From NCBI GenBank assembly GCA_036505355.1, contig DASXTP010000108.1, positions 14,857 through 78,856 on the forward strand: a stretch of 64,000 bases of DNA, written 5' to 3'. A program made the position numbers and the translations under genes. Positions within the stretch are counted from its first letter, which is position 1, and the number at the start of each line of letters is the position of its first letter. This DNA comes from Candidatus Eiseniibacteriota bacterium (GTDB lineage: Bacteria; Eisenbacteria; RBG-16-71-46). Positions 15,632 to 62,852 of the stretch are shown piece after piece. The notes beneath the pieces are model-generated. The model did not search any database, was not told the origin of the DNA, and saw nothing but the letters and a program-made list of their open reading frames with translations.

Positions 15632-15887
15632 GACGACTCCTCAAGCATCGGCTGGACACCCGAGCGAAGGGGACCCGAGCACGGTGAGGTTCGGTGTCTC
15701 TTGGTGTGCGGGTGCGGAGTTTAGCGGAGGGCAGCCAGGGGCTCAACCTGGCCGCCGTTTCCTGTGGGACGTTCCCCGGCACTCGGGTGCCACGGCTCGC
15801 TGAATGGAGATGTGCCAGGCGATCAGCGACAGCCAATCAGGCTGCCCGTGGCCACCGGAACGGCGAATCCCTTCGCGGCGGGGTGCC

Positions 15888-49875: not shown

Positions 49876-49876
49876 G

Positions 49877-50254: not shown

Positions 50255-50277
50255 CGGGCGTCTCGAGGCTGAGGCGA

Positions 50278-50979: not shown

Positions 50980-51393
50980 TGGCTTCACCTTCCTTGTGAA
51001 GTCAGGCCACGCTGGGAACCGGGTGCCGATGACGGTCGACGCGTCTTGTCGTGAGAGCGGATGCACGCTAGCACAGGGCTCGCGAAGCCCTCAAGGAAAA
51101 CAGCCTGCCGTCAGCGCCCGGCGCCCACCGTCGCCTCGACGGGCCGACCGGCCCAGAGTCCCCGCAAGATCGTTAGGCCGCGCCCTTCGTGCGACCGGGC
51201 CTCGCGCACTGTGCCCAGACGACAGGCCGCGCATCTGCGGCGGTCGGGCGATCCGACCCAGACACCTGACCGGACGAGTACAGGGGGTCGTCAATCTGCT
51301 GCAAAGAACCAGGACGAGGCTCGTCGGGGCCACATCAAACCGGTATTCTTCTGGGTGCCGGACGCGCACCCACCGGCCGAGGAGACAGGATCC

Positions 51394-51882
51394 ATGCGCA
51401 CCCGCCCGACCACCGTGCTCTTTGCCCTTCTCACGGTTGGTGCCTGCCACGCCGCAACTTGCTTCGGTGAACCTCGACTGGCGCCACCCTTCTCGGTCAA
51501 GGGCCTGGATGGGAGGATCATCCGACTCTCCGACTTCCGTGGCCGCCCGGTGGTGGTGGATTTTTGGGCGACCTGGTGCGGGCCTTGCCGCGCGAGCATG
51601 CCGCATTTGGACGCGCTTCAGCGCCGATACGATCCGCGGGGGCTGGTGGTGATCGGCTTGTCGGTGGATGAAGGCAGCGCGCAGGGAGTCCGGCAGTTCG
51701 CCGCCCGCATGGGGGTCGGCTTCCGGCTGGCGATGGCCGACGAGGGGCTGCTGGACCGCTATGGCCCCATCCGGTACCTGCCGACGACGTTCTTCATCAG
51801 CCGGACCGGAGAGATCGTCCGTCGAGTCAGAGGCTACATCGACCCAGAGACGATGGAGGCCTATATCCAGGAGCTGTTCTAG
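51394..51882 (+). CDS. TlpA/ResA-like periplasmic thiol-disulfide oxidoreductase
   Basis: ATG 51394 (GAGGAGA upstream) within ORF 51061..51882. Signal peptide and WATWCGPC active site. Confidence 0.85.
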   Translation: MRTRPTTVLFALLTVGACHAATCFGEPRLAPPFSVKGLDGRIIRLSDFRGRPVVVDFWATWCGPCRASMPHLDALQRRYDPRGLVVIGLSVDEGSAQGVRQFAARMGVGFRLAMADEGLLDRYGPIRYLPTTFFISRTGEIVRRVRGYIDPETMEAYIQELF

Positions 51883-51930
51883 GCGGGCCGGACGACCGCC
51901 GTACGGCGGGTCGCCCCACGACCCAAGATC

Positions 51931-51960
51931 GAGGCCACGCCGGCGAGCCAGCGTGGCCTC
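51931..51960. terminator. Hairpin between tlpA-like gene and the left att copy (probable original bidirectional terminator of the tRNA locus)
   Basis: Perfect 10-bp inverted repeat GAGGCCACGC / GCGTGGCCTC with a 10-nt loop. The last 6 nt of its 3-prime arm belong to the 35-bp att repeat. Confidence 0.4.
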
Positions 51961-51989
51961 GTGTCGTGGTGCCCGGGGCGAGATTTGAA
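51955..51989. repeat. Left copy of the 35-bp att direct repeat (contains a duplicated 23-nt tRNA-Leu 3-prime end)
   Basis: GGCCTCGTGTCGTGGTGCCCGGGGCGAGATTTGAA is identical to 62040..62074. Confidence 0.85.
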
Positions 51990-52092
51990 TACGGCTCACG
52001 GCTGCGCCTATTTTGTGTGACGTGAGCCGATGTCGGCGTAGCAAGGACTTGCGACGCCGAGTCGCGAAGGTCCGCGACGCAAAACGCCACAG

Positions 52093-52114
52093 CGACGGCA
52101 CAACGACGGCACAA
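52093..52114 (+). repeat. Two tandem copies of the 11-mer CGACGGCACAA (arm-type site candidate, left arm)
   Basis: Copies at 52093-52103 and 52104-52114. Related triplet at 61938-61970. Confidence 0.6.
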
Positions 52115-52130
52115 GGCAGGGAGGCGCTCG

Positions 52131-52469
52131 ATGAACGAAGCACCCGGCAAGGATGGACGGCAGGAGACGATCCTGCGCAAGGCGATGTTGGAAGCGGTGC
52201 GGTTTGGGTACGACGGACCTGGAAAAGACTGGCCTGGGCTCCCGGCCCAGGATCTCAGGGAACGCATCTCCCGAGGTGAGCATGTAGCGATCTTGCGAGA
52301 TGAGGTGGTCGTCAGGACTCTCTGCGGCCAGCGGTTCGTCCGGGGCATTGGCGCGGTGGTAACGGTCATCAATCCCGTCACCCGTACAAGCCAAGATCAA
52401 TGGAAGCAACACCACGACGCGATCCAGAACGCCGACCCCCTGGAATACTTGGCCCCCTTCATCCAGTAG
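52131..52469 (+). CDS. Hypothetical protein (element)
   Basis: ATG 52131 preceded by GGGAGG. 112 aa with coding-like composition. Confidence 0.6.
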   Translation: MNEAPGKDGRQETILRKAMLEAVRFGYDGPGKDWPGLPAQDLRERISRGEHVAILRDEVVVRTLCGQRFVRGIGAVVTVINPVTRTSQDQWKQHHDAIQNADPLEYLAPFIQ

Positions 52470-52481
52470 CCGGAGCCACGC

Positions 52482-53246
52482 ATGAGCGGGAGCAGGAAGG
52501 CAGCGGTCCCCGCAGCGCTCGCCACCGAGCCTCCGCGCGCGCGTGGATCGCGCAGCCTGGGCAAGAACAGCGGGCAAGTCGATGCGATCCTGGAGCTGAT
52601 GTACCACCTGCAGCTCGACGAAGGCGGGCTCCGCGATGAACGGAAGCGGCAGGCCTACCGCGCGGCGTACCTGGAGGTCTGGGCGAGCATGTTCCGAGGG
52701 GGCGCCGCTGCCCAGCGGACCCTATTCGGCGGGGCGCCGCCGCCCTCGAGCTGGGAGCAGCTCGACCCTGGGGACCTGTTCGACTACGTGAAGGGCACCG
52801 TCAACGATCGGGCCCAGCGTATTCTGAAAGAGGCGGACGAGGTGCGTGGGCCGAGTGCCCGGGACGCCGAGGCCTACGAGTTCGTGCAAGCGCGGCCCAG
52901 GGGACGGCAACGAGCGCCAGAGTGGTGGGACGCCTTGCTCGAGGAATGGAAGGCGAGGCACCCCGGCTCGCGCCTCCGCAGCGTGCGAGGCCTCCAAGCC
53001 GCCTTTCTCCGCGGCCGCAAGCTTGCCGCCGAACAGCACGACGAGGCCCATTACGTGGCCGCGCTCGAGCAGCGAGCCGAGGTCCAGCGGAAAGCCAGCG
53101 AGGAGCTGGAGGACCTGGCCGCCCGGGCCGGCCTGACGCCCGCGATGCGCGACACGCTGGCCGCCGAGCGGCTTGGCGAGCCCGTACAGCGCTGGCAGCG
53201 GCAGGACCTCGTCGACAAACTGAAGGCCACCCCAAAAAAAGCCTAA
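52482..53246 (+). CDS. Hypothetical protein (element)
   Basis: ATG 52482. 254 aa, helical and charged. No recognisable motif. Confidence 0.6.
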   Translation: MSGSRKAAVPAALATEPPRARGSRSLGKNSGQVDAILELMYHLQLDEGGLRDERKRQAYRAAYLEVWASMFRGGAAAQRTLFGGAPPPSSWEQLDPGDLFDYVKGTVNDRAQRILKEADEVRGPSARDAEAYEFVQARPRGRQRAPEWWDALLEEWKARHPGSRLRSVRGLQAAFLRGRKLAAEQHDEAHYVAALEQRAEVQRKASEELEDLAARAGLTPAMRDTLAAERLGEPVQRWQRQDLVDKLKATPKKA

Positions 53247-53324
53247 CGCGCCGGCTACGCCCCAGGCGTTTTCGCACCTTCTCCTAGGTGAAGGGGCCAC
53301 GAGGCCCCCCCACCGGAGGCGAAG

Positions 53325-53603
53325 ATGTCTTGGCAGCTCGAAGCCCTGTTGGTTGCGACCGGACCGGACGGGCGCGACGTACCGATCGCACGAACGCGCG
53401 CGACCGGGGCAGTGCGGATCCTCGGGAACGTTTTGGTGGGCGAGGCCCGGGCCGAGGCCGCGGCCTTGCGCCGACTCGATCCCCTACTCGGCCGCATCGG
53501 GAGCGCCGAAGCCCGCCGCTTGGCCACGGTGCTGGAGTCCGTCGCCGACGGCCGCGATCCGGGCCCCGCCTTGGGACTCGTGCAAGGCGGAAGCGAGCGG
53601 TGA
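53325..53603 (+). CDS. Hypothetical protein (element)
   Basis: ATG 53325 preceded by GGAGG. 92 aa. The stop overlaps the next start (GTGA). Confidence 0.5.
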   Translation: MSWQLEALLVATGPDGRDVPIARTRATGAVRILGNVLVGEARAEAAALRRLDPLLGRIGSAEARRLATVLESVADGRDPGPALGLVQGGSER

Positions 53604-53935
53604 GCCCCACTCTCGCCGAGCTGCTCGCCCACCCCGAGCGCGTGGCCGACCTCGAGCCCTCCCAAGTGCCGGCGCTGCTCGCACAGCTCGCGGCCCTTTC
53701 GCTTGCCCTGAGCGCCCGCCTCGCTGCGACGTCCGAGCGCGAGCCGTCCGCGAATGGCCACATGCTCTCGCCCGACGAGGTCGGCGCGCTCCTCGGGATC
53801 CCTCGCGAGCAGGTCTGGCGATACAGCCGCAGGCGTTCGTGGCAGAAGTTCACGCGGCGCGTCAGTAGGAAATGCGTGCGTTTCGACGAGGCAGGCCTGC
53901 GCGCCTGGCTCGCAACCCAGGGGACCGTGCGATGA
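53600..53935 (+). CDS. Helix-turn-helix DNA-binding protein (AlpA/excisionase-like)
   Basis: GTG 53600. The C-terminal MLSPDEVGALLGIPREQVWRYSRR..KCVRFDEAGLRAWL resembles HTH_17/Xis-type domains. Confidence 0.6.
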   Translation: MSPTLAELLAHPERVADLEPSQVPALLAQLAALSLALSARLAATSEREPSANGHMLSPDEVGALLGIPREQVWRYSRRRSWQKFTRRVSRKCVRFDEAGLRAWLATQGTVR

Positions 53936-54701
53936 CCGAAATCCCAGTCGACCGCATCAGGGTGGGCCCCCGCTTCCGGCGCGAGCTCGGGGACCTAGGG
54001 GAGCTGAAGCGCAGCATTGAGGCCGTCGGTCTGCTCCATCCCGTTGTGGTCGATCCAGCCGGGAACCTCTTGGCTGGTGCCCGGCGCCTCGCGGCCTGCG
54101 TCGAGCTGGGCTGGACCCAGATTCCGGCGACCATCGTTGATGCCGATGCCCTGCTGGTCGAGGCGCACGAGAACATCGTGCGCCAGGACTTTTTGCCCAG
54201 CGAGGCCGTCGCGATTGCCGACGCAGTCGAGGCACGGGACAGGGGAAGGCCCGCGAGCGCATGCTGGCCGGCAGACCCTGCGTTGAATCAGCGCAGGGTG
54301 AAACGCGCGTCCGCGTAGCCCGGGCAGTCAACACCGGCTGGCAACGCCTGGAACGTGCCCGCGCTGTGGTCCGCGCCGCTGAGCGGGATCCCTACTTGCG
54401 CCCGCTCGTCGCCGAAATGGACCGCGACGGCAACGTCGCCGCAGCGTACCGGAAGCTCCAGGCCGTGCTCGGTAAACAACGCGACGACCCTCAGGCCGAC
54501 CACGGCATCAAGACCAAGCTGGCCTTTTCGCTCTGCGAAGCCTGTCACGGTGCCGCCCACATCACGCTCACTGTAGTCGGGGGCGAGCGCGACGGCCTGC
54601 GTTTGGCGCACTGCTTGGATCAGTCCGAACGCGACCGGCTCGCGGCCTTCCTCAACCGGAGCGATGCCCTCTCCACTTTGGCGCATGCCGAGGAGGCCTA
54701 A
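53932..54701 (+). pseudogene. ParB-like nuclease-domain protein, interrupted by a 1-nt deletion at a homopolymer
   Basis: The N-terminal ParB/Srx block (IPVDRIRVGPRFRRELGDL.EL..SI...GLLHPVVV, HENIVR) is in the frame of ORF 53872..54318. The continuation KARERMLAGRP..GETR..VARAV is in the frame of ORF 54261..54701. The frames meet at AGGGGAAGG (54241-54249). Confidence 0.6.
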
Positions 54702-54706
54702 CCGCG

Positions 54707-54949
54707 ATGATCGGACTGGCCAGGGAGGGCCGACGTTGGCGACCGCTCGCGGAGCGCTTAATCGCCCCGCCGGCCGGGCCCGATGAGCGCTGGTTTTGCA
54801 CGGACATCGACGCCTTGGACGATGCCGCCCTGCGCGCGGAGGTCCGGCGCCTGCGCGCTGGCCTGCTGCTCGCCGAACACCCCGACGCCTGGGCCCAGCA
54901 ACGCTTGGGCCTGCTGCTCGCCGAGCTCGAGGCCCGCGGTGCACATTGA
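54707..54949 (+). CDS. Hypothetical protein (element)
   Basis: ATG 54707 lies 10 nt after GAGGAGG. 80 aa. Confidence 0.5.
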   Translation: MIGLAREGRRWRPLAERLIAPPAGPDERWFCTDIDALDDAALRAEVRRLRAGLLLAEHPDAWAQQRLGLLLAELEARGAH

Positions 54950-56255
54950 CCCGAGAGTCGCCCGCGACGGCGAGCGCGTCGGCGATTTGGTGTGGAACGA
55001 CCGCGACGCGCGGTGGGATCCCGTGAACGAGCCCGCCCGAGCCATCCGGCGATCGGATGATTGCCCCGGCTGGGTGCTCGAGGCCGATGTCGCGCTCAAT
55101 GCGCAGCTCGTGGCCGAGGCGCCGCCGAACGGATCCGCTCCCGCTCGAATGCCCCACCTAGCCGCGCCGAACGGCGAGTCCGGAGCCCGTCCACTCGTAG
55201 GCCTCGACCTTGACCACGACTTGGAGCCGCTGCCGGTGCTGCTCGACGGCCTGTTCTTGGAGCGCGACCTGGGGCTGTTCTGCGGCACGACGGGCGAGGG
55301 GAAGACCACCATGCTCGCCGCGGTGGCCCTGGGGCTGGCCAGCAGGCGGGCCCCCTGGGTGGGCGGCCCAGTGCCCGAGCGCGTCGCGCCCGTGATCTAC
55401 CTGGATGCCGAGATGGGCCCGCACGCGACCACGCGCACCTTCAAGCGGCTCATGGTGGCTATGGGGCTCGACCGCAAGCCGGAGGCGCTGCTCGTGGTCT
55501 CCGCTCCGGGTGAGGTGTCGCTCGTATCGCCCGAGGGCGTGCAGCGCATCGAGGCCACGTTGCTCGACTGGACGCAGCGCCATCAAGGACTCGGCCCTCC
55601 CGTTCTGTTCCTCGACACGCTGAGCGCGGTGCTCGCGGGGCTTGAGTCGTTCAACGACGCTGCGCTCGTCGAGCCGGTCTATCGCAGGTTGTTCGGCTGG
55701 CGTGACCGCCTGGCCTGCACCATCGCACTCTCCCACCACCCTCGGAAGCGCGGCCGCTGGGAAAGCGGCGCGCCGACGCTCGACCAGGTGCGGGATACGA
55801 GCACGCACGTCGGCAAGGCCAGCGTCGTCTGGTTCGCCGAGAAGCCGGCGCGGGGCGCGAGCTGCCTCGACATCCACACGCTCAAGCATCGGGGCCGCGA
55901 CGCGATCCCCGTGCAGCGGATCGCATACCGCAGTGAGGGAAACGACGCGGCCATCCACCTGTCCGGTGAGGAAGCGCCCCAACCGGAGATCGAGGGCGAG
56001 CTGGAACGCGCCGAGAAGTCACTCGCCGACTTCGTTCGGCTTCGCGGTGCCGGCGGGGCCCGCCGAGCGGAGCTGCTGGCCTTCGCCGATGCCGAGCGCA
56101 TCAGGGAGCGGACCGCCAAGCGTGCCTTGGCTGCCCTGCTCGGGCTCGGGGTGGTGACTCAGAAGACCGGGGACGGGAAGACCCACCGCGGCCAGTGCTG
56201 GCTCACGAGGCCGCGCTCTGACCTGTTCGAGGAGGGGACCGATGATGGCCTTTGA
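54939..56255 (+). CDS. RecA-fold AAA ATPase, RepA/AAA_25-like (replication-associated)
   Basis: In ORF 54783..56255, with probable start GTG 54939. Walker A GTTGEGKTT and Walker B-like VLFLDTLS. The C-terminal winged-helix-like segment is followed by an iteron-like repeat field. Confidence 0.65.
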   Translation: MHIDPRVARDGERVGDLVWNDRDARWDPVNEPARAIRRSDDCPGWVLEADVALNAQLVAEAPPNGSAPARMPHLAAPNGESGARPLVGLDLDHDLEPLPVLLDGLFLERDLGLFCGTTGEGKTTMLAAVALGLASRRAPWVGGPVPERVAPVIYLDAEMGPHATTRTFKRLMVAMGLDRKPEALLVVSAPGEVSLVSPEGVQRIEATLLDWTQRHQGLGPPVLFLDTLSAVLAGLESFNDAALVEPVYRRLFGWRDRLACTIALSHHPRKRGRWESGAPTLDQVRDTSTHVGKASVVWFAEKPARGASCLDIHTLKHRGRDAIPVQRIAYRSEGNDAAIHLSGEEAPQPEIEGELERAEKSLADFVRLRGAGGARRAELLAFADAERIRERTAKRALAALLGLGVVTQKTGDGKTHRGQCWLTRPRSDLFEEGTDDGL

Positions 56256-56261
56256 GCGCTC

Positions 56262-56479
56262 GGGCCAACGGGCCAACCCCCCTATATACCCCCGACCTCT
56301 TGGCCCAAACCCCCGACGGGCCAACCCCGTGCCAGCGAGGGCCGCTGCCCTTGGGCGGCAGCGGCCTTGCCTCGCTTGGCACTACACGGGCGCCACCAGG
56401 CTTCGGGCCACGGTTGGGCCACCGAAGGGCCAGGTTCGGGACGGGCCAAGCGAGTGCTCGGCGTGCAGACGTTTGGCCC
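56262..56479. repeat. Iteron-like field: nine GGGCCA/TGGCCC hexamers plus a 10-bp hairpin and a TATATA box (candidate replication origin)
   Basis: GGGCCA at 56262, 56270, 56318, 56405, 56416, 56427 and 56443. TGGCCC at 56301 and 56474. The 12-mer CGGGCCAACCCC occurs twice (56269-56280, 56317-56328). Hairpin GGCCGCTGCC/GGCAGCGGCC at 56340-56366. CCTATATACC at 56281-56290. Confidence 0.55.
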
Positions 56480-56873
56480 GTCGGAAAAGGTACTGGCTCA
56501 GGGTCCGCCACGAGGGTCCCGGCGGCCGCGGGGCTAGCGAAGTGAGCCTCGAAACGGGGTGGCAGGGTGGCATCGAGTAGGCGCTCGGGTGGCATGAGCC
56601 TGGCGGCCTGGTGCCGGTCACGGGGGATCCCGTGGGCGACAGGGCAAGAAAGCGCGCGGCCAGGGACGCCTGGCAGCCGGGGCCGGATTCGCGACCTGGG
56701 ACGCGGAGTGGGCCGCCACGCACCCGGACTGGCAGCCGCCGAGCTCACAGGGCGGCCCAGGCGGGGCGATCGGGCGAAAGCATGGCCCGCGGGCCCCGGT
56801 TCCCGGCGATGCGCGCCCACGGGCGGGCAACGGCCAGGCTCCGAGCGAATACGCGGCGAGTCGGACGCGGTTC

Positions 56874-57233
56874 ATGTCGGCGCGGGCCACGCTCGAGGAG
56901 TTGAAGGCTGCGGAGGCGGTCCGCGCCGCAGACAGCCTTCCTCGAGATGCGGTCCACCGGCTGGTCGAAGTGGCCATCCATGCCGCCGCGAACGCCGCGG
57001 TCCACCAAGGCGTCGAACGCGCGGGCGCGATCCTCGAGAAGTTATTCCCCGGGTACGACCCCGCGCCGCTGCTCAGGTTCGGGATCCAGATCCGCGAGGC
57101 GGTCTTGGCCGAGCTCCCGCTGATGCGGCAGAAGGTCACCGATGAGCTCGCGCTTGCTGCGGGGATTGACCCTGCGACCGGGAAGCTGCTGCGGGGGCGA
57201 GCTGGGATTGAACGTGAACCAGGGAGGGCATGA
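56874..57233 (+). CDS. Hypothetical protein (element)
   Basis: ATG 56874. 119 aa, helical. The frame stays open upstream to 56598 with no start codon, so the gene may be 5-prime truncated. Confidence 0.5.
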   Translation: MSARATLEELKAAEAVRAADSLPRDAVHRLVEVAIHAAANAAVHQGVERAGAILEKLFPGYDPAPLLRFGIQIREAVLAELPLMRQKVTDELALAAGIDPATGKLLRGRAGIEREPGRA

Positions 57234-57469
57234 CCGTGGCCAATCGGCCCAAATGGACGAGTCCATTCGGACGTTGGCTCATGAACTACGGCACGGAGCG
57301 GCTGCGAGCTGAGTTCGCGCGCCGCGGCACCCCGGTATCTCGGCAATGTCTTTACCACTGGGGCAGCGGCCGCCGGCGTCCGCGGGTCCAGCACGCGGCT
57401 GTACTGATCGAGGTGTCGCGTGGCCGTCTGCGTCTCGGCGATTTTCGCCGAAAGGAGGATGCGTCGTGA
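57230..57469 (+). CDS. Cro/YdaS-like helix-turn-helix regulator
   Basis: ATGA overlap with the upstream gene. GTPVSRQCLYHWGSGRRRP..HAAVLIEVSRGRL resembles Cro/YdaS-type single-HTH proteins. Confidence 0.5.
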   Translation: MTVANRPKWTSPFGRWLMNYGTERLRAEFARRGTPVSRQCLYHWGSGRRRPRVQHAAVLIEVSRGRLRLGDFRRKEDAS

Positions 57470-57663
57470 AGTTGCTCTATCCCGCGAGCGCGGAGCATTT
57501 GGCTCAGATGCTGGCCGCTCGCGTGAAGTTTCACCTGTCGCGTGGCGTTGGGTTGAGCGCCGCGAAGAAGCTTGCGGCCGCCGAGGCCGAGCAGTTTTCG
57601 CGTCACTCGCTGTTGAAACACGGCGTCCTCGTCGGGCCGCCGGGCGCGGTGAAGATTGTCTGA
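57466..57663 (+). CDS. Hypothetical small protein (element)
   Basis: GTG 57466 lies 6 nt after AAAGGAGGA and overlaps the upstream stop (GTGA). 65 aa. Confidence 0.5.
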   Translation: MKLLYPASAEHLAQMLAARVKFHLSRGVGLSAAKKLAAAEAEQFSRHSLLKHGVLVGPPGAVKIV

Positions 57664-57688
57664 CACGTTCAAGCCAAAGGAGGAGCAG

Positions 57689-58198
57689 ATGAAGAATGAC
57701 CAAACGCCGATGCGCGCGATCGGCTGGGTGCCGGGCACCGGGTCGCTGGTACTCGAGGTCCGTGGGCCGAAGCTCGCGATTCTCTCGACTCAACGTCTGA
57801 TCGAAGTCGATCTGCCAGGCGAGGCTGTCGCCGTTGGCGTCGGGCAAGGTCCCACGGTCGTGCTGGCCGATGGCCGCGCCCTTCGCTGGGATCTCGACCG
57901 GCGCGAATGGAAGGCAGTCGGCAACCTGCGCATGGATCCGGTCGCCGTCGCGCCTCGGCGCTCCGAGCCGCGCGTCGAGATCGTCCGCAACGTGCCGAAG
58001 CAGGCGATTGTGATGGGCACGTATAGGGCGTTGAGAACGTTCCAGCTCGGCCGCGGCGAAATACTCAGAGAGGATGAAACGATCTCGCTCCCGCGGGACG
58101 ATTCGGAAACCCGATACCGGGTTCGCTCGGGTCTGCTTGAGCTCGTGGTCGAGCCCGTTGAGGAGTCGGAGGTCGAAGCGAAGGGAGACCGCAAGTGA
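57689..58198 (+). CDS. Hypothetical protein (element)
   Basis: ATG 57689 preceded by AAAGGAGGAG. 169 aa. Confidence 0.6.
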   Translation: MKNDQTPMRAIGWVPGTGSLVLEVRGPKLAILSTQRLIEVDLPGEAVAVGVGQGPTVVLADGRALRWDLDRREWKAVGNLRMDPVAVAPRRSEPRVEIVRNVPKQAIVMGTYRALRTFQLGRGEILREDETISLPRDDSETRYRVRSGLLELVVEPVEESEVEAKGDRK

Positions 58199-58476
58199 TT
58201 CAGGGGTGGGAACGACACTTGGAGGTCTCAGAGATGGCGCGGACCGGGCCGCGGGTGAAGTGTGTGGCGTTGAAAACGTTCAGTCGCGGGCGCGAAGACA
58301 GGTTTGAACCCGACGGTCGCATCGTATCCAGTCCGCTCGAGGCGGCCCGGCCGGGCGACGTTCTTTGGCTGCCATTGGTACACGCGGGGACGTTGGAGCT
58401 GTCGGGCCACATCGCCCGCTTGAATCCGGGCGACAAGATTTTCATCGACGGCGTCGAGGCCGTCGAAGCGAAGTGA
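58195..58476 (+). CDS. Hypothetical protein (element)
   Basis: GTG 58195 overlaps the upstream stop (GTGA). 93 aa. Confidence 0.5.
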   Translation: MIQGWERHLEVSEMARTGPRVKCVALKTFSRGREDRFEPDGRIVSSPLEAARPGDVLWLPLVHAGTLELSGHIARLNPGDKIFIDGVEAVEAK

Positions 58477-58561
58477 CGTAGCGCCGAGGATCCGGCTCGC
58501 CGTGCGGCGTACTCCCATTCGCCCACGGTGGGCCGCCCTCGGTCAACACACAGGAGGAGTT

Positions 58562-58669
58562 ATGCCGAAAGTTTCAGCTCCACCGCGTCCGGCGCTGGTG
58601 CCGAATCCGCCATCGCCTCGACCGGAGGCTCGCCGTCGCAGCCGCAGAATCCCGCGCCGGTCAACGTGA
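58562..58669 (+). CDS. Candidate 35-aa Pro/Arg-rich micro-protein
   Basis: ATG 58562 lies 2-3 nt after the very strong RBS AGGAGGAG (58552-58559). Translation: MPKVSAPPRPALVPNPPSPRPEARRRSRRIPRRST. The composition is low complexity, so coding status is uncertain. Confidence 0.3.
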   Translation: MPKVSAPPRPALVPNPPSPRPEARRRSRRIPRRST

Positions 58670-58904
58670 CCGACGGGGAGGCCGATCGGAAGCGCTAGAT
58701 CATCGTCGCGCGCCGGCCGGGTTTTTTCTCCTTTCCCCGGTGGGCGTCGGGCGCAGCCGCTCGACGACCGGTGCGCGTCCCCGGGCCCGGCTGCCGCACC
58801 CGCGGGTGGCCCGGGGCAACACTGTAGGGGGCCGGTAGCCGGGGCAACACGGCACCCTGGCGCACCCCTTCACGGCGGGGCCGGCCCATTCTAGGAGGTG
58901 ACGC

Positions 58905-59594
58905 ATGGCGAGTTTTGAGGCGAACGTCGATTCGGTTCGCGCGTTGCGTTTTCTTCGGGACGCTCCCCGAAAGATGAGCTTCGCCATCGCCAACAGCATC
59001 AACGCAACCGCGCGAAAAGTTCAGGCCGCCGAGCGCGAGCAGCTCGCTTCGCGGTTCACGCTGCGCCCTGGGACGCGGGAATTTCTCCTACGGCAAGCCA
59101 GCATCATCAAGCCTTTCGCCGATCCGCGGGAAGGTCGTTTCGAGGCCAAAGTTGCCGTCGGCCAGCGTCCGCGGCTGTTGTTGCCGAAATATGAAAGCGG
59201 CTTCACGCGTGAGTCGTTCCGCTCCAGCTCGAGCAAGGTCGCGGTTCCGGCCGGTGCGCGTCCGAGCCGGACCGCGTCGATCCCGTCGGAGCTGTACCTC
59301 CGGAACCTCGCCTTGAAGAAGGTGCGGGCTCGGGGCCGAGTCGGTGCTCGACGGCGCAAGACAGGTGCTCGGCCGGCGATCGCGGGTCGGTTGGGCAGTT
59401 ACCTGGCAGGATCGGTGATCTTTCAGCGAGTCGGCCGCGGCGTGAGCAAAGCGCTCTACGTTCTCGCACGGCCCTTCAGAGTCAGTGCGCGCCTCGGCTG
59501 GATCGCAACCGCCAGGCGCACCGCCGAGCGCACTTTCCCCGGCGAGCTAAAGCGCCAGGTCGAGGACGCGCTCGAGCACGCCTTGAAGGGATAG
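58905..59594 (+). CDS. Hypothetical protein (element; possibly phage-derived)
   Basis: ATG 58905 preceded by TAGGAGGTGA. 229 aa. No motif I can name with confidence. Confidence 0.6.
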   Translation: MASFEANVDSVRALRFLRDAPRKMSFAIANSINATARKVQAAEREQLASRFTLRPGTREFLLRQASIIKPFADPREGRFEAKVAVGQRPRLLLPKYESGFTRESFRSSSSKVAVPAGARPSRTASIPSELYLRNLALKKVRARGRVGARRRKTGARPAIAGRLGSYLAGSVIFQRVGRGVSKALYVLARPFRVSARLGWIATARRTAERTFPGELKRQVEDALEHALKG

Positions 59595-59733
59595 AGCATG
59601 AACGACGCCGCGCCCTCGCTCCCGCCTCTCGGCTCGACGCCCTCGTGCCCCGCCTGCGGGTGGTGATGACTCGCAATAATCCTCCTGTACGCTAGGCGTA
59701 CATCATGCTAGACTGCCGCTGGAGGGAGTCTCG

Positions 59734-60054
59734 TTGACGCGCACGGAGGCGGAAGCGCTCATCCAGAGCATCTTGGAAGGGACCATGCCCTGCTTACGTC
59801 CCCGGCACTTTTGGGAGAGTTGCGCAGAGGAGGGCTTCACGGCCCAAGACATCCATCCCATTCTCCGCTCCCATGAGATGAGGGGGGCTCCAGAGTGGCG
59901 AGCGCAAAACCACGCCGACCGAGTGCGGCTCGTCGGGAAGTGCTGCGAGGGCCGCTCGACGGTGCTGGTGATCGATCTTCGGACCGCGGGGCCCTGTGCC
60001 TTGGTGAGCATCATGGTAGACAAGGCGTCGCCTAGGAAGCGGAGGGCAACATGA
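59734..60054 (+). CDS. Putative type II toxin (DUF4258/MqsR-like position and size)
   Basis: TTG 59734 after GGAGGGAG. 106 aa. The stop overlaps the start of the MqsA-like gene (ATGA). The layout H..E.CAEEGFTAQDI..IL....GR..VLVID resembles DUF4258 proteins. Confidence 0.45.
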   Translation: MTRTEAEALIQSILEGTMPCLRPRHFWESCAEEGFTAQDIHPILRSHEMRGAPEWRAQNHADRVRLVGKCCEGRSTVLVIDLRTAGPCALVSIMVDKASPRKRRAT

Positions 60055-60629
60055 GCCACGTCACTTGTCCGGGCTGTGGCAAGCCGGCCGCGACTGCCCG
60101 AGCTATTGCTACGTACCACTACACGGAGTCTGGGCTCGATAACGTCTGGCTGGTCGGCGGGGTTACTGAGACCGAGTGCTCGGAATGCGGCGAGAAGTTT
60201 CTACGGGTCACGAGAGAGCCCCAGTTGCTTCAGGTCATCGCGCTGGATCTCCTCATGCGGCCTTCCTACCGGACCGGCGCCGAGCTGCGTTTTCTTCGTC
60301 GAGCGTGTGGGTTGAGCCAAGAACAGCTTGCCGCGTTGCTCCAGTGCCCACGTCGAGCCACGATCGCCGAGCGAGAGGCGAAGGATCATCCAGGGCTAAG
60401 TTTCCCGGAGGAAGTCGGGTATCGGTGGGTCTTGTTGAAGGCGTTCCAGGAGTTCGTAACGACGCCCGGGAACAATGCCCTGGAGGCGAGTCATCTGCAG
60501 AAGTTTTGGAGCTTCGCGGGATTCTTTCGTGACTTTGCGATCAAGGTTGACTCGCATCATCGCAGGATCACGGCTCGCGTGCGGCAGAACGCTTGGACCG
60601 TGGACGAGCATCGGGGCAAGGCCGCCTAG
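60051..60629 (+). CDS. MqsA-family antitoxin (YgiT-type zinc ribbon plus XRE-type HTH) with C-terminal extension
   Basis: Zinc ribbon CPGCG..(33 aa)..CSECGE, then the HTH GAELRFLRRACGLSQEQLAALLQCPRRATIAEREA, then ~80 extra residues. Confidence 0.7.
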   Translation: MSHVTCPGCGKPAATARAIATYHYTESGLDNVWLVGGVTETECSECGEKFLRVTREPQLLQVIALDLLMRPSYRTGAELRFLRRACGLSQEQLAALLQCPRRATIAEREAKDHPGLSFPEEVGYRWVLLKAFQEFVTTPGNNALEASHLQKFWSFAGFFRDFAIKVDSHHRRITARVRQNAWTVDEHRGKAA

Positions 60630-60639
60630 GGAGGAAGCC

Positions 60640-60858
60640 ATGACAGACGAACAAGCGCGGATGCTTTGGGCAATTGTCACCGCTGAGGGCGAGACCCCGA
60701 AGGTGTTTCGGGACGCCGGCGTGGCGTCACGCAAAGAGGCCGCCGACCTCTTGCGAGGGGCGATTCTCTCTAGCAAGAAAGCCTCGGAATCGTGGACGGG
60801 CCTGACCGCAACGCCCTGGGCGCGGGGCCTGATGGCCTGGGCGGAGGACCAGCGATGA
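60640..60858 (+). CDS. Hypothetical small protein directly upstream of the integrase
   Basis: ATG 60640 after GGGAGGAAG. 72 aa. The stop overlaps the integrase start (ATGA). Confidence 0.55.
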   Translation: MTDEQARMLWAIVTAEGETPKVFRDAGVASRKEAADLLRGAILSSKKASESWTGLTATPWARGLMAWAEDQR

Positions 60859-62004
60859 GCGACCAAGTGAAGTCCCAGAAGAAGGCCCGCCCGCGCTACC
60901 TCGGGCGCGTGTATCTGCGCGGCAGCGTGTGGTGGGTAGACTTCCAAGTGGACAAGCAACGCCACCGCAGGGCGGCGGAGGACGTCAAGACGGAGCGGCA
61001 AGCGTGGGACTATCTGGCGGCCGAGCGCGCCCGCGTCAAGCAGGGGGCGCGTGTTGACCTGGAGCACGCTCGCTTTGACGACCTCGCCACGCGGTTGCGG
61101 GCGCACCACGAGGCGAAAGGGACGCGCCCAAAGACCCGCGCGCGGTACGACCAGCACCTGGCGCACCTCGAGGCCTTCTTCGGCAATGCGCGCGCGAAGC
61201 ACATCGCAGGACGGGTGGAGGCGTACATCGCGGTCCGACGGCGTGGCGAGCCGGAGGCCCGGCCGCCGGTGGCACCCCCGCGGCCTGCTACGATCCACGG
61301 CGAGGTCGCGCTCCTGGCCCAGATGTTCCGCGTGGCCGGGCTCCCCCGCCCGCCCCTACCCAGCATCACGATTCGCAACGTGCGCACCGGGTTCTTCGAG
61401 GAGCGGGACGTGCAAGCCGTGACTGCCCACCTACCGCCCCCGCTGCGCCCCGCCCCATGGTTCGCCTACTTCACGGGCTGGCGCAAGGGCGAGGTGCTCG
61501 GGCTCCGGTGGAAGGCTGTGGACTTCACTGCGGGCACCGTGCGCCTCGAGCCCGGCGAGACCAAGAACGGCCGTGGGCGCACCTTCCCCCTTTGCCGTCT
61601 ATCCGGCCTTGGCCTCCCTGCTGGAGACGCAGCGCGAGGGTACGAGGGCCCTGGAGCGCACCACGGGGCAGATCGTGCCCTGGGTGTTCCACCGCGGAGG
61701 TGTCGAGATCCGCGACATGGACGACGCCTGGCGGACGGCGTGCAAGGCTGCGGGACTGCCCGGGCGCCTGTTCCACGACCTGCGGCGCTCCGCCGCTCTG
61801 GCTCTCCGGCGCCTCGGGCTCTCGGAGACGGACATCATGGAGCTCGCCGGGTGGGAGACGCCGAGCATGTTCCGGCGCTACTGCGTCAAGGACGAGACCG
61901 GGCTGGCCGAGCGGCTACAGCGCGCCTTGAACGCGGGCGACGGCACAGCGACGGCACAAACGCGGCACAAGGCCCCGGAAGGGACGAGCGGCGAGGCGCC
62001 GTAA
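60855..62004 (+). pseudogene. int: Tyrosine recombinase/integrase interrupted by a 1-nt insertion in a C-run
   Basis: The N-terminal and core-binding part from ATG 60855 (..FTGWRKGEVLGLRW..LEPGETKNGRGRTFP) is in the frame of ORF 60792..62012. The catalytic C-terminus (FAVYPAL..LFHDLRRSAA..AGWETPSMFRRYCV) is in the frame of ORF 61573..62004. The frames switch at CCCCCTTT (61586-61593). Confidence 0.8.
61938..61970 (+). repeat. Three tandem copies of CG(A/C)CGGCACA(A/G) (arm-type site candidate, right arm, inside the int 3-prime end)
   Basis: CGACGGCACAG at 61938-61948, CGACGGCACAA at 61949-61959 and CGCGGCACAA at 61961-70. Related to 52093-52114. Confidence 0.6.
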
Positions 62005-62051
62005 TCCCTTGAACGACAGAGGCCTCGCCGATTGCACGAGGCCTCGTGTCG

Positions 62052-62136
<85 letters not shown>

Positions 62137-62212
62137 AACCATGAAGTGGAGCGGGCTCGTGGCTCCGCTGAAAATGCCTGGCAGCGTGGGCTGGGGCACC
62201 TTCAATCGCTGC

Positions 62213-62674
62213 CTAGGGGCCGCCGGCCGGCGGCGACGCGGGCTTTTGGCCTGGCGCGGGAGCCGGCGTGGTCGCCGGCTTCTGCCCGGGTCCGGCCACT
62301 GGCTGCGTTCCAGGCGCCGGCGCTTGTCCCGGTGAAGCCTGACTCGGGGCCGCTTGCGAAAGCGGCGGCCGATTCGGCGCAGGCGCCGACGTGGCCGAGG
62401 AGCGCCGCGCCTCCTCTTGGAGCAGGCTGCGCCCCGGCCCGCTCGTCCCGCTCGACAGCAGCGCCAGCAAGAGCGACATCACGAAGAACGCCCCGCCCAG
62501 CACCATCGTCGCGCGGGTGATGAAATCCGTGGCGCCCCGGCCACCCAGCACGGTCTGCGCTGTGCCCCCGAAGGCTCCGGACGCCAAGCCGCCTCCTTTG
62601 CCCGACTGCAGCAACACCACCGCGATCAGTCCCAGGCAGACCAGGATGTGGATCGTCAGCAGAACACCGTACAC
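62213..62674 (-). CDS. secG: Preprotein translocase subunit SecG with long Pro/Ala-rich C-terminal tail
   Basis: LLTIHILVCLGLIAVVLLQSGKGGGL and a second TM helix are canonical SecG features. Position after tpiA is typical. An ~80-aa PA-rich tail follows. Confidence 0.85.
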   Translation of the reverse strand: MYGVLLTIHILVCLGLIAVVLLQSGKGGGLASGAFGGTAQTVLGGRGATDFITRATMVLGGAFFVMSLLLALLSSGTSGPGRSLLQEEARRSSATSAPAPNRPPLSQAAPSQASPGQAPAPGTQPVAGPGQKPATTPAPAPGQKPASPPAGGP

Positions 62675-62852
62675 AACCCCTCCAGCGGTTCGAGACGGCG
62701 ATCATCGAACGTCGAACGGCCGAGAACCTTAGCAGCCCGGCGCGATTGGGTCAACGCACGCGAGCCGCGTGTGGGACGCGGCCGCGCCGCGGGCCGCCGG
62801 GCCCGCGCCCGACCCCCGCCTCTCTCAAGACGACGCGGGAAAGGAAGCGATC

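What the first reader, a model, noticed from the sequence alone, without database searches (positions are those of the whole stretch)
51955..62074. 10.1-kb integrative element in tRNA-Leu(GAG) with replication, partition-like and TA modules but no recognisable virion genes
A perfect 35-bp direct repeat (51955-51989 and 62040-62074) includes the last 23 nt of tRNA-Leu(GAG). It brackets 20 plus-strand genes inside an otherwise minus-strand neighbourhood (tol-pal on the left, tRNA-secG-tpiA-pgk on the right). The integrase lies at the tRNA-proximal end.

Recognisable cargo is an AlpA/Xis-like HTH, a ParB-like protein, a RepA/AAA_25-like ATPase with an adjacent iteron field, a Cro-like HTH and a DUF4258/MqsA-like TA pair. 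The remaining ~11 genes (52131-53603, 54707-54949, 56874-59594, 60640-60858) match nothing I can name.

I saw no capsid, portal, terminase or tail genes. The architecture therefore resembles a phage satellite, an integrative plasmid-like island or a heavily reduced prophage.
Basis: partly seen in the sequence, partly recalled or inferred. Interest (0 to 1): 0.7.

Follow-up and report, generated by a model that had tools for sequence, protein, structure and literature searches.

The report
Small tRNA-Leu island, satellite-like, decaying
This is a real 10.1-kb mobile element inserted into a leucine tRNA gene of an uncultured soil-type bacterium (Candidatus Eiseniibacteriota); it belongs to the common integrase–excisionase–replicase type of island, carries two genes borrowed from tailed phages, and has frameshifts in its integrase and ParB genes, so it is probably no longer able to move on its own.

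Summary
A perfect 35-bp direct repeat (51955-51989 / 62040-62074) contains the last 23 nt of tRNA-Leu(GAG). It brackets about 17 plus-strand genes between tol-pal/tlpA and secG-tpiA.

- The integrase is split by a +1 frameshift at a C5 run (61586-61590). This separates R210/K237 from H307/R310/W333/Y342.
- The "ParB-like protein" and the next ORF are one ParB-family gene split by a second frameshift (about 54236-54246).
- The 229-aa ORF (58905-59594) belongs to a phage family (PHROG 1924, "minor tail protein"). Its relatives sit beside a homologue of the 79-aa HTH gene (57230-57469), at the end of the tail operon or directly upstream of terS-terL, in at least 15 viral contigs.

No capsid, portal or terminase gene was detected. 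DUF4258 was not confirmed. MqsA-like similarity is supported only at domain level.

Int, Xis, RepA and ORFs 2-3 have their nearest relatives in other small tRNA-Leu islands, not in phages. The best reading is a PICI-type-C-like or tycheposon-like int–xis–rep island, and a candidate satellite, that picked up a phage late-region gene pair and is now decaying. It is a new member of a known kind. Mobility and helper dependence are untested.

The parts
51955..51989 (.). attL core: 35-bp copy of the tRNA-Leu 3' end (23 nt) plus 12 nt downstream
   Evidence: Perfect direct repeat with 62040-62074.
52084..52128 (+). Candidate arm-type integrase sites (P' arm): (A/G)CG(G/C)CACA repeated at 11-bp phasing
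   Evidence: the repeat finder family D1. Four of the five exact ACGGCACA copies in the 64-kb window lie at 52095, 52106, 61940 and 61951. Binding by Int is inferred.
52131..52469 (+). ORF1, 112 aa, unknown
   Evidence: Called in both other assemblies. No Pfam, PHROG or PADLOC hit.
52482..53246 (+). ORF2, 254 aa, conserved island gene of unknown function
   Evidence: 46-50% identical homologues P0158 and P0159. P0159 sits at the left end of sibling element L107. No family hit.
53325..53603 (+). ORF3, 92 aa, conserved island gene of unknown function
   Evidence: 77% identical to the ORF that follows the ORF2 homologue in L107.
53600..53935 (+). Xis/AlpA-type HTH_17 protein, 111 aa
   Evidence: Pfam HTH_17 5.7e-5 (below the curated cutoff) and phrog_66 excisionase/regulator 6.4e-6. 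Homologues lie next to the integrases in L083, L104 and L107.
53932..54701 (+). ParB/Noc-family (ParB_N + HTH) gene split by a frameshift near 54236-54246. The N-terminal part is 53932-54318 and the C-terminal part is in the frame of 54261-54701.
   Evidence: ParB_N 9e-9 and phrog_12047 3e-21. The coding frame changes here. The fused translation aligns continuously over residues 9-152 with the phage phiAH14a ParBc-like nuclease (39% identity, E 4e-26) and over 10-203 with Noc 7ng0. The stretch is identical in the Logan and JGI assemblies.
54707..54949 (+). ORF7, 80 aa, unknown
   Evidence: High GC3. Called in both other assemblies. No family hit.
54939..56255 (+). RepA-like AAA_25 (RecA/DnaB-fold) replicative ATPase, 438 aa, with no primase domain
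   Evidence: AAA_25 8e-25 and phrog_239 primase/helicase 4e-12. Homologues at 50-61% identity carry or adjoin Prim-Pol or DnaG-type primases.
56256..56873 (.). Non-coding candidate origin: 9 copies of GGGCCA within 56262-56479, plus a 19-bp-arm imperfect inverted repeat at 56331-56375
   Evidence: No coding frame signal. This is the densest GGGCCA cluster of any 235-bp window in the 64 kb. Origin function is inferred from its position next to repA.
56874..57233 (+). ORF9, 119 aa, unknown
   Evidence: Called in both other assemblies. No family hit.
57230..57469 (+). Cro/YdaS-like small HTH protein, 79 aa (g10), of phage origin
   Evidence: No HMM hit. Homologues (29-48% identity) lie within about 2 kb of the g14 homologue in most of the 15 (of 17) IMG/VR loci that have one; L103's is about 4.6 kb away. 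In phage contig L112 the homologue is 42% identical. The profile's best PDB hit is the N15 Cro-like repressor, E 0.094, which is weak.
57466..57663 (+). ORF11, 65 aa, unknown
   Evidence: Called in both other assemblies. No hit.
57689..58198 (+). ORF12, 169 aa, beta-rich, unknown
   Evidence: No hit in Pfam, PHROGs, NCBIfam, PADLOC, INPHARED or IMG/VR. The single-sequence AF2 model has pLDDT 50 and is unusable.
58195..58476 (+). ORF13, 80-93 aa, unknown
   Evidence: Frame signal present. No hit.
58477..58904 (.). Intergenic region with a GC stem + T6 (about 58703-58725), two GGGGCAACAC copies (58813, 58841) and a strong RBS before g14
   Evidence: Read directly from sequence. No Rfam hit. No motif shared with the phage loci.
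58905..59594 (+). g14, 229 aa: phage late-operon protein of PHROG 1924 ("minor tail protein"; remote links to tail-completion/Neck1/HK97-gp10-like proteins)
   Evidence: phrog_1924 2.4e-11 over the full length. The family has 351 representative clusters. All 80 members tested hit phrog_1924; 10 hit phrog_27, 6 hit DUF6441 and 1 hits Minor_tail_Z. The AF2 model has pLDDT 93.9. BFVD matches are viral proteins at E 6.5e-9 to 1.8e-6, followed by weak "tail component" and "HK97 gp10" hits. There is no PDB match.
59734..60054 (+). ORF15, 106 aa, possible toxin partner. Its stop overlaps the start of ORF16.
   Evidence: No Pfam or NCBIfam hit, including DUF4258. The resemblance to the DUF4258 pattern is by eye only.
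60051..60629 (+). ORF16, 192 aa, zinc-ribbon + HTH, MqsA-family-like regulator or antitoxin
   Evidence: TIGR03830 1.4e-9 (37.8 bits, cutoff 61.8), Pfam MqsA 0.016, HTH_31 9e-5 and phrog_5119 5e-15.
60640..60858 (+). ORF17, 72 aa, unknown
   Evidence: Called in both other assemblies. Only one sub-threshold, implausible Pfam hit.
60855..62004 (+). Tyrosine integrase, 382 aa if one C of the C5 run at 61586-61590 is removed. As it stands it is frameshifted (+1) after P245.
   Evidence: The frame switch shows in the translations and the GC3 plot. The repaired protein scores PF00589 4e-17 and phrog_1 1.5e-38. R210 and K237 lie before the shift; H307, R310, W333 and Y342 lie after it. The same sequence is in the JGI assembly. 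It is 44% identical to the intact Int beside tRNA-Leu(CAA) in L083.
61929..61973 (+). Candidate arm-type integrase sites (P arm), inside the 3' end of int
   Evidence: Same repeat family as 52084-52128.
62040..62074 (.). attR core
62052..62136 (-). tRNA-Leu(GAG), intact; the integration target
   Evidence: ARAGORN. Rfam RF00005, 49.7 bits.

Best explanation
The region is a 10.1-kb site-specifically integrated mobile element of the integrase–excisionase–replicase type. That architecture is shared by P4-like elements, PICI "type C" elements, PICMIs and tycheposons.

**Integration (sequence shown, action inferred).** A lambda-type tyrosine integrase recombined a 35-bp core with the 3' end of tRNA-Leu(GAG). 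This regenerated the tRNA at attR and left a 23-nt tRNA fragment at attL. Phased (A/G)CGGCACA repeats lie 70-125 bp inside each end and are the likely arm-type Int sites.

**Excision and replication (inferred).** Excision would need Int plus the HTH_17 Xis/AlpA protein. The excised circle would be replicated by the RepA (AAA_25) ATPase acting on the GGGCCA iteron cluster directly downstream of repA. Priming would come from a host or helper primase, because RepA has no primase domain.

**Phage-derived genes.** The right half carries a gene pair acquired from a tailed temperate phage. One is a Cro-like HTH (g10). The other is a PHROG-1924 late-operon or "minor tail" protein (g14). The right half also carries an MqsA-like module.

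**Transfer (not shown).** The most likely route when the element was active is hitch-hiking in virions of a helper phage of the lineage that donated g10 and g14.

**Present state.** In the sampled population the element carries frameshifts in int and in the ParB-family gene. It is therefore probably immobilised and decaying.
For: **Boundaries and target**
- The att repeat and the tRNA are confirmed.
- The arm repeats are non-random: 4 of the 5 exact octamer copies in the window lie at the two ends.

**Core functions**
- Int, Xis, ParB and RepA are assigned by Pfam and PHROG.
- The iteron cluster is the densest of its kind in the window.

**Backbone relatives are islands, not phages**
- RepA (50%), Xis and Int (44%) recur together beside tRNA-Leu(CAA) in L083-85, which carry McrBC/DUF499 cargo, and in L104.
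- ORF2 (46%), ORF3 (77%), Xis and Int recur in L107. That element has a different replicase (Prim-Pol/DUF3631), a tRNA-Leu fragment as attL, and no phage genes.
- RepA has no PLSDB hit and no IMG/VR relative.

**g10 and g14 are phage genes acquired as a block**
- They co-occur in 15 of 17 viral loci.
- They show similar divergence (42% and 43%) in the closest phage contig, L112.

**Foreign origin**
- GC3 of element genes is 0.70-0.86, against 0.81-0.92 for host genes.

**Decay**
- The int frameshift is shown, and the parB frameshift.
- Both are identical in the other assemblies.
Against: - No excised form, empty site or second copy was found, so mobility is inferred from anatomy only.
- No small terminase, capsid-remodelling gene or other recognised hijacking gene is present. 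About nine ORFs remain without any annotation.
- SatelliteFinder treats tail profiles as forbidden for PICI (PMC10085698). If g14 is a tail protein, it argues against a PICI.
- The order ParB…g14/g10…int–att is colinear with group-B prophages. A prophage remnant is therefore not excluded.
- The three assemblies may derive from one read set, so independent confirmation of the frameshifts is limited.
Confidence: 0.55

Rival explanations
1. Defective prophage. A temperate phage of the group-B type (…ParB…replication…structural genes…tail–g14–lysis–g10…int–att) lost its roughly 25-30 kb morphogenesis and lysis block by internal deletion. Only the early genes, g10, g14 and int remained between intact att sites.
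For: - g14 and g10 are bona fide phage late-region genes.
- The overall order ParB…g10/g14…int–attR is colinear with L089, L095 and L100.
- Two frameshifted genes show ongoing decay.
Against: - Int, Xis, RepA, ORF2 and ORF3 have no detectable relatives in any of the 17+ phage loci. ParB shares only weak ParB_N-domain matches with them (E 2e-6 or weaker).
- Int, Xis, RepA, ORF2 and ORF3 do have 44-77% relatives in small non-phage tRNA-Leu islands.
- No fragments of capsid, portal, terminase, tape-measure or lysin genes remain.
- g10 and g14 are separated by three ORFs that are absent from the phages.
- Sibling L107 is about 7.5 kb and has no phage gene at all.
Confidence: 0.2
2. Currently functional phage satellite. 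The int interruption is bypassed by +1 slippage on CCC-CCU or complemented in trans. On helper infection the element excises, replicates and is packaged. g10 and g14 act as the helper-interface genes.
For: - The size, unidirectional layout and int–xis–rep core match known satellites. PICMIs show that capsid-remodelling genes are dispensable (PMC10803314).
- The att repeats are perfect, which suggests recent integration.
- CCC_C is a plausible +1 slippery site. This is inference only.
- g10 and g14 homologues sit immediately upstream of terS-terL in group-A phages.
Against: - There are two independent frameshifts, and the parB one has no such rescue rationale.
- The related L104 int is frameshifted at a different site and in the opposite sense. 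This argues for mutation rather than a programmed event.
- No helper, no packaged form and no terS were found.
- The element is absent from IMG/VR.
Confidence: 0.15
3. Integrated plasmid-like or mobilisable element (IME/AICE-like) that moves by conjugation or vesicles and has no link to phage particles. On this reading g10 and g14 are incidental cargo.
For: - RepA + iterons + ParB is a plasmid-style maintenance set.
- Cargo-type tycheposons with the same core are not phage-dependent (10.1101/2020.12.28.424599).
Against: - No relaxase, T4CP, T4SS or FtsK/Tra gene was detected.
- RepA has no PLSDB relative at 1e-5.
- There is no ParA partner, and the ParB is of the phage nuclease-domain type (best match is the phage phiAH14a ParBc).
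Confidence: 0.08

Closest known systems
PICI, specifically the "Type C" class of SatelliteFinder (integrase + AlpA-type regulator + primase/replicase only)
   Same: - The size is about 10 kb.
- Integration is site-specific.
- Int, an AlpA/HTH_17 protein and a replication ATPase with an adjacent origin are present.
- The gene layout is largely unidirectional (definition in PMC10085698).
   Different: - No TerS and no capsid-morphogenesis gene.
- No divergent Stl-like repressor.
- No primase domain.
- It carries a PHROG "tail"-category gene, which the PICI model forbids.
- The host is a candidate phylum far outside Proteobacteria and Firmicutes.
Tycheposons (Hackl et al.; tRNA-targeting tyrosine-recombinase elements with replication modules in Prochlorococcus)
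   Same: - The element is flanked by a full and a partial tRNA.
- It has a YR integrase, an excisionase and a helicase-type replicase.
- The replicase module is swapped between siblings (AAA_25 versus Prim-Pol/DUF3631).
- Tandem tRNA fragments occur at the locus in L107 (10.1101/2020.12.28.424599).
   Different: - No sequence relationship to tycheposon hallmark profiles was tested.
- The phylum differs.
- PICI-like tycheposons carry terS or MCP, and this element carries neither.
PICMI (minimalist satellites of Vibrionaceae)
   Same: The gene set is reduced and has no capsid-remodelling genes. The excision and replication core is Int/AlpA/replicase (PMC10803314).
   Different: - PICMIs integrate next to fis, not in a tRNA.
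- No homology was shown.
- This element is larger and carries extra modules.
P4-like satellites
   Same: Median size of 10 kb, tRNA-Leu-type integration, and Int + AlpA + a replicative ATPase.
   Different: - Psu, Delta, Sid and Ash (epsilon) were not detected.
- RepA lacks the primase half of P4 alpha.
PHROG 1924 / HK97-gp10-like tail-completion proteins (for g14 only)
   Same: - The HMM match covers the full length.
- All 80 family members tested hit phrog_1924, and some hit phrog_27 and Minor_tail_Z.
- The predicted fold matches viral proteins in BFVD.
   Different: - No solved-structure match.
- The gene sits after the distal tail genes or before terS, not between head and tail genes where tail-completion genes usually lie.
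- Virion association has never been shown for the family.

Membership tests
tRNA-integrated tyrosine-recombinase genomic island (generic) | Direct repeats that duplicate the 3' part of a tRNA gene, with an integrase gene adjacent to the intact tRNA | tested here: met
   The same Int–tRNA-Leu geometry occurs in L083 and L104.
tRNA-integrated tyrosine-recombinase genomic island (generic) | Intact integrase ORF carrying the catalytic residues | tested here: not met
   A +1 frameshift at 61586-61590 separates R210/K237 from H307/R310/W333/Y342.
tRNA-integrated tyrosine-recombinase genomic island (generic) | Variable presence: an empty site in relatives, or an excised circle | tested here: inconclusive
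   The genome-contig scan found no syntenic relatives. Exact look-ups of TlpA and SecG gave only the same locus. No reads were available.
PICI (SatelliteFinder definition, PMC10085698) | Integrase + regulator (AlpA/MerR/Stl) + primase-replicase | tested here: met
   Int (frameshifted), HTH_17/phrog_66, and AAA_25/phrog_239. SatelliteFinder's own profiles were not run.
PICI (SatelliteFinder definition, PMC10085698) | Small terminase subunit and/or a capsid-morphogenesis gene | tested here: not met
   No terS or capsid family hit for any ORF in Pfam or PHROGs.
PICI (SatelliteFinder definition, PMC10085698) | Absence of the forbidden tail and holin components | tested here: inconclusive
   g14 hits PHROG 1924, which is in the "tail" category. 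Whether it would hit SatelliteFinder's tail profiles was not tested. No holin or lysin was found.
cfPICI | Capsid, portal, head-tail adaptor/connector, terL, terS | tested here: not met
   None detected.
P4-like satellite | Psu, Delta, Sid and Ash together with Int, AlpA and alpha | tested here: not met
   Only analogues of Int, AlpA and the helicase half of alpha are present. No PHROG or Pfam hit corresponds to Psu, Sid, Delta or Ash.
PLE | V. cholerae-specific marker set (capR, nixI, lidI and others) | not tested
   No PLE profiles were available. The host phylum and gene content make membership implausible.
PICMI | Integration next to fis; three core proteins homologous to the PICMI Int, AlpA and primase | tested here: not met
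   Integration is in tRNA-Leu, not beside fis. Homology to PICMI proteins was not tested.
Tycheposon | Shared hallmark gene profiles (YR, xis, pri/hel) forming one gene-sharing cluster; tRNA target with partial-tRNA flanks | tested here: inconclusive
   The architectural features are met. Hallmark-profile membership could not be tested with these tools.
Temperate tailed prophage (intact or defective) | Terminase, portal, major capsid, tail and lysis genes, or recognisable fragments of them | tested here: not met
   Only g14 (PHROG 1924) matches. There are no fragments of the others.
ICE / IME / AICE | Relaxase/oriT, coupling protein, or FtsK-like Tra | tested here: not met
   No such hit in Pfam, PHROGs or NCBIfam.
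MqsRA-like type II toxin-antitoxin | MqsA-family Zn-ribbon+HTH antitoxin above the family threshold | tested here: inconclusive
   TIGR03830 scores 1.4e-9 but only 37.8 bits against a cutoff of 61.8. Pfam MqsA scores 0.016.
MqsRA-like type II toxin-antitoxin | Recognisable toxin (MqsR or DUF4258) encoded immediately upstream | tested here: not met
   ORF15 has no Pfam hit even at E ≤ 10, and no NCBIfam toxin hit. Only the overlapping stop/start arrangement fits.
ParABS partition system | ParA ATPase partner plus an intact ParB | tested here: not met
   There is no ParA. The ParB-family gene is frameshifted and is closest to a phage ParBc-like nuclease.

The most novel reading that the evidence does not exclude
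The element represents a new family of phage satellites in the candidate phylum Eiseniibacteriota and neighbouring soil lineages. On this reading the family has no terminase or capsid genes. It exploits its helper through a co-opted pair taken from the helper's own late-operon boundary: a Cro-like regulator (g10) and a PHROG-1924 tail-completion-like protein (g14). In group-A phages that pair lies immediately upstream of terS-terL. The pair would give the satellite a regulatory or virion-assembly handle on phages of that lineage.
Probability: 0.15. Interest if true: 0.6.

Novelty: new member of a known kind. Interest (0 to 1): 0.33.

Why it matters
Nothing is known about mobile elements or phages of Candidatus Eiseniibacteriota, a soil candidate phylum with no cultured members.

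This locus offers several things:
- A cleanly delimited example of the int–xis–rep "hitcher" architecture in that phylum.
- A small set of sibling islands with swapped replicases and defence cargo.
- A linked phage gene pair (g10/g14) of unknown function. The pair marks a lineage of high-GC temperate phages and could point to the helper.

The element itself looks like a decaying copy, and it fits a well-described general class. Its value is mainly as a catalogue entry and as a lead for satellite discovery outside Proteobacteria and Firmicutes.

Tried and rejected
**Empty-site test**
- A genome-contig scan with the TlpA-like protein returned only generic redoxins at ≤47% identity. None had a neighbouring tRNA-Leu.
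- An exact-protein look-up of TlpA found only the same JGI contig, and SecG was not on record.
- The test could therefore not be done.

**Related elements**
- The RepA profile scan of metagenome contigs gave only 2 loci.
- IMG/VR scans with RepA, ORF2 and ORF12 found nothing.
- INPHARED tblastn with g14, ORF2 and ORF12 found nothing.
- RepA against PLSDB found nothing.

**g14 function**
- There was no PDB sequence hit and no PDB fold hit.
- A literature search for DUF6441 returned nothing.
- I looked for a cos- or pac-like motif shared between the intergenic region upstream of g14 and the phage loci. Only random GC-rich 11-mers turned up.

**Other ORFs**
- The ORF12 single-sequence AF2 model had pLDDT 50, so it was not used for fold search.
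- ORF12 and ORF13 are not paralogues.
- PADLOC found no defence system. Its only hit was ParB_N cross-matching a methyltransferase model.
- Rfam found only the tRNA.
- The promoter and terminator scan was no better than shuffles.

**Readings rejected**
- A programmed frameshift in int. The related L104 integrase is broken at another site and in the opposite sense, and L083's is intact.
- DUF4258 as a tested assignment.
- ParABS partition. There is no ParA and the ParB is broken.

Full report

Yes. ARAGORN finds a single tRNA in the window, tRNA-Leu(GAG) at 62052-62136 on the minus strand, and Rfam agrees.

The repeat finder returns 51952-51989 versus 62037-62074, 38 nt with one mismatch. That is a perfect 35-bp repeat at exactly the coordinates given (read directly). 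Positions 62052-62074 are the 3'-terminal 23 nt of the tRNA. A 35-bp exact repeat is not a chance event in 64 kb.

A GC3 frame plot shows plus-strand coding throughout the interval. Two non-coding gaps interrupt it, at 56256-56873 and 58477-58904.

The flanks are as described:
- Left: TolQ, TolA-like, TolB and Pal on the minus strand, then a plus-strand TlpA-like redoxin.
- Right: tRNA, SecG, TIM, then PGK and GAPDH.

**2. Source and reproducibility**

The 229-aa protein is recorded at NCBI as HEY3216471.1, locus tag VGK93_08255, from a TPA MAG of "Candidatus Eisenbacteria bacterium". That places it in the candidate phylum Eiseniibacteriota.

The same locus appears in two other assemblies:
- JGI metagenome 3300036864. 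Window 48905-64000 is matched with three substitutions and no gaps. All three substitutions are in tolQ.
- A Logan contig of SRR11743100, which matches 52187-61061 at 100%.

These may come from one read set, so they are independent assemblies but not necessarily independent samples.

**3. Gene content**

The recognised functions are as follows.

| Feature | Coordinates | Evidence |
|---|---|---|
| Xis/AlpA-type protein | 53600-53935 | HTH_17 5.7e-5; phrog_66 6.4e-6 |
| ParB_N protein | 53932-54318 | Pfam 9e-9; phrog_12047 3e-21 |
| RepA-like ATPase, 438 aa | 54939-56255 | AAA_25 8e-25; phrog_239 4e-12 |
| Zn-ribbon + HTH protein | 60051-60629 | TIGR03830 MqsA family 1.4e-9, below cutoff; phrog_5119 5e-15 |

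Other points on gene content:
- The 79-aa "Cro-like" ORF has no HMM hit. Its family alignment nevertheless has the look of a YdaS/Cro-type HTH, and its best PDB match, a weak one, is an N15 Cro-like repressor.
- No ORF hits a capsid, portal, terminase, lysin, relaxase or defence model.

**4. Origin-like region**

Directly after repA, nine GGGCCA copies lie within 56262-56479. Six of them are GGGCCAA, out of 15 GGGCCAA in the whole window. This is the densest such cluster in the 64 kb. An imperfect inverted repeat (19-nt arms, 79% complementary) lies at 56331-56375. Origin function is inferred from position only.

**5. Arm-type sites**

Four of the five exact ACGGCACA copies in the window lie at 52095, 52106, 61940 and 61951. 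Degenerate neighbours sit at 11-bp phasing, 70-125 bp inside each att core. This is the layout expected of arm-type sites for a lambda-like integrase. Binding is inferred.

**6.

*Integrase.* The integrase reads in one frame up to ...ETKNGRGRTFP. It continues in the +1 frame as FAVYPALASLLE...HDLRR...RRY.
- Removing one C from the C5 run at 61586-61590 restores a 382-aa recombinase.
- As it stands, R210 and K237 are separated from H307, R310, W333 and Y342.

*ParB.* The ParB_N ORF and the following 146-aa ORF are two halves of one gene.
- The coding frame changes near 54236-54246, in a run of G3/G4 tracts.
- The fused translation aligns without a break over residues 9-152 with the ParBc-like nuclease of Pseudomonas phage phiAH14a (39% identity, E 4e-26).
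- It also aligns over residues 10-203 with Noc, PDB 7ng0.

Both lesions are present in the other assemblies that cover them.

A related integrase in L104 is also frameshifted, but at a different site and in the opposite direction. The L083 orthologue is intact. I therefore read these as mutations, not programmed events.

**7. The 229-aa ORF (g14) is a phage gene**

- It matches PHROG 1924 ("minor tail protein") end to end, at 2.4e-11.
- An exhaustive HMMER search found 351 representative clusters, all about 210-260 aa.
- All 80 members tested hit phrog_1924. Ten also hit phrog_27 ("tail completion or Neck1"), six hit DUF6441 and one hits Minor_tail_Z.
- An AF2 model built on that alignment is confident (pLDDT 93.9).
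- The model has no PDB match. It does match three unnamed viral proteins in BFVD (E 6.5e-9 to 1.8e-6, TM about 0.6), followed by weak "tail component" and "HK97 gp10 family" entries.

**8. Where g14 relatives live**

Seventeen IMG/VR contigs carry a homologue. They fall into two groups.
- *Group A* (L087, 88, 92, 93, 94, 96, 101, plus three Bordetella phages): the gene follows the J-like tail protein (phrog_1101) and precedes terS (phrog_57) and terL (phrog_15). A ParB-like gene sometimes lies in between.
- *Group B* (L089, 90, 91, 95, 97, 98, 100, 103): the gene is translationally coupled to a roughly 1000-aa tail-region protein. An endolysin, an integrase and a ParB-like gene follow it.

A homologue of the window's 79-aa ORF (g10) is present in 15 of the 17 loci. 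In most it lies just upstream of g14 or within about 2 kb downstream; in L103 it is about 4.6 kb away.

The closest g14 relatives, P0008 and P0009, are also in phage contexts. In L112, g10 and g14 are 42% and 43% identical to the window's copies. g10 and g14 are therefore a linked phage pair that this element acquired together. What the pair does is unknown. "Minor tail" is an annotation, not a demonstrated function, and the gene position is atypical for a tail-completion protein.

**9. Where the backbone relatives live**

- RepA homologues at 50-61% identity are rare.
- One set (L083-85) lies in an island with the order McrBC, DUF499/DUF1156, DnaG-type primase, RepA, HTH_17, Int. That Int is 44% identical and intact, and it directly abuts tRNA-Leu(CAA).
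- L104 has RepA–Xis–Int–tRNA-Leu(CAA).
- L086 has a Prim-Pol–RepA fusion beside a type I restriction-modification system and an HTH_17 gene.
- ORF2 and ORF3 (46% and 77% identical) recur in L107. That element runs: tRNA-Leu(CAA) 3' fragment, 184-aa ORF, ORF2 homologue, ORF3 homologue, two small ORFs, Prim-Pol/DUF3631 replicase, 148-aa ORF, HTH_17, Int. It has no phage-type gene.

Int, Xis, RepA, ORF2 and ORF3 have no relative in the phage loci, and ParB shares only weak ParB_N-domain matches with them. RepA has no relative in PLSDB.

The backbone therefore belongs to a loose family of small tRNA-Leu islands with exchangeable replicases and cargo. That is the pattern described for PICI-like elements, P4-like elements and tycheposons (PMC10085698; 10.1101/2020.12.28.424599).

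**10. Interpretation**

Shown:
- The boundaries, the tRNA target and the gene families.
- The two frameshifts.
- The phage origin of g10 and g14.
- The island affiliation of the backbone.

Inferred:
- Int and Xis carry out integration and excision through the 35-bp core and the arm sites.
- RepA drives iteron-based replication, using a foreign primase.
- Transfer in helper-phage particles.

The last point is the weakest. There is no terS and no capsid-remodelling gene, no helper was found, and no excised or packaged form was seen. PICMIs do show that satellites need not encode capsid-remodelling genes (PMC10803314).

The prophage-remnant alternative cannot be excluded. The order ParB…g10/g14…int–att is colinear with group-B prophages, and the element is visibly decaying. 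It is less likely, because the backbone genes are island genes rather than phage genes, and because no structural-gene fragments remain.

**11. Comparison and verdict**

The element fails the tested definitions of P4-like, PICI types A and B, cfPICI and PICMI. It meets only the three-component "Type C" PICI pattern, which the authors themselves regard as ambiguous. It resembles tycheposons architecturally.

I classify it as a new member of a known kind: a tRNA-integrated int–xis–rep hitcher island and candidate satellite, from an unexplored phylum, and probably an inactivated copy. Interest is modest. The most useful lead is the g10/g14 pair as a marker for a possible helper lineage.

Noticed in passing
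L104 (JACXTT010047640.1), about 3815-3827: The related integrase beside tRNA-Leu(CAA) is also frameshifted. The shift is -1 at a C run, about 30 codons downstream of the window's site and in the opposite direction. So two of the three full-length Int genes seen in this island family are broken (L083's is intact; L107's is cut off by the contig end).
   Followed up: partly
L107 (GCA_046716125.1, JBKJXJ010000310.1), 1-35 and 1561-1595: Two tRNA-Leu(CAA) 3' fragments, 80% alike, bracket a Laminin_G_3/Por_Secre_tail gene just left of the sibling element. This suggests serial accretion of inserts at one tRNA locus.
   Followed up: partly
window 54939-55200 (RepA N-terminus): RepA keeps a short motif (ARAIRRSDDCPGW) that aligns with the PriCT-like RLFRRSxLC motif of homologues carrying an N-terminal Prim-Pol domain. 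This RepA may therefore descend from a primase-helicase fusion that lost its primase part.
   Followed up: partly
L106 / L110 (Bordetella phages PBb002, PBb001, PY223): These are the only cultured phages with a g14-family gene. In them it is the first annotated gene before terS-terL, and a 1.3-kb stretch with no annotated gene precedes it.
   Followed up: no
L112 (JGI 3300050232), 9497-10675 and 13513-16440: In the closest phage relative, an 80-aa ORF with a CsrA Pfam hit sits between the g10 and g14 homologues. The GpA-type large terminase of that phage carries LAGLIDADG (intein-like) hits.
   Followed up: no
window 50650, 50659, 50674 (tolQ): These are the only three differences between the window and the JGI contig over 15.1 kb. 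The element itself is 100% identical, so strain-level variation exists in the host gene but not in the element.
   Followed up: yes
window 52187 and 61061: The Logan contig of SRR11743100 starts and ends inside the element (56 nt into ORF1 and 206 nt into int), not at the att cores. The cause is unknown. It could be graph branching from a variant or a coverage drop.
   Followed up: no
window 58562-58669: A 35-aa Pro/Arg-rich ORF with a strong AGGAGG ribosome-binding site lies in the intergenic region upstream of g14. Neither external gene caller called it, and its coding status is unclear.
   Followed up: no
window 62035-62048: A perfect 14-bp palindrome, CACGAGGCCTCGTG, lies immediately 3' of the tRNA and straddles the left edge of the attR core. 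The attL copy has one change (CGTGG…). This accounts for the single mismatch in the 38-nt version of the repeat.
   Followed up: partly
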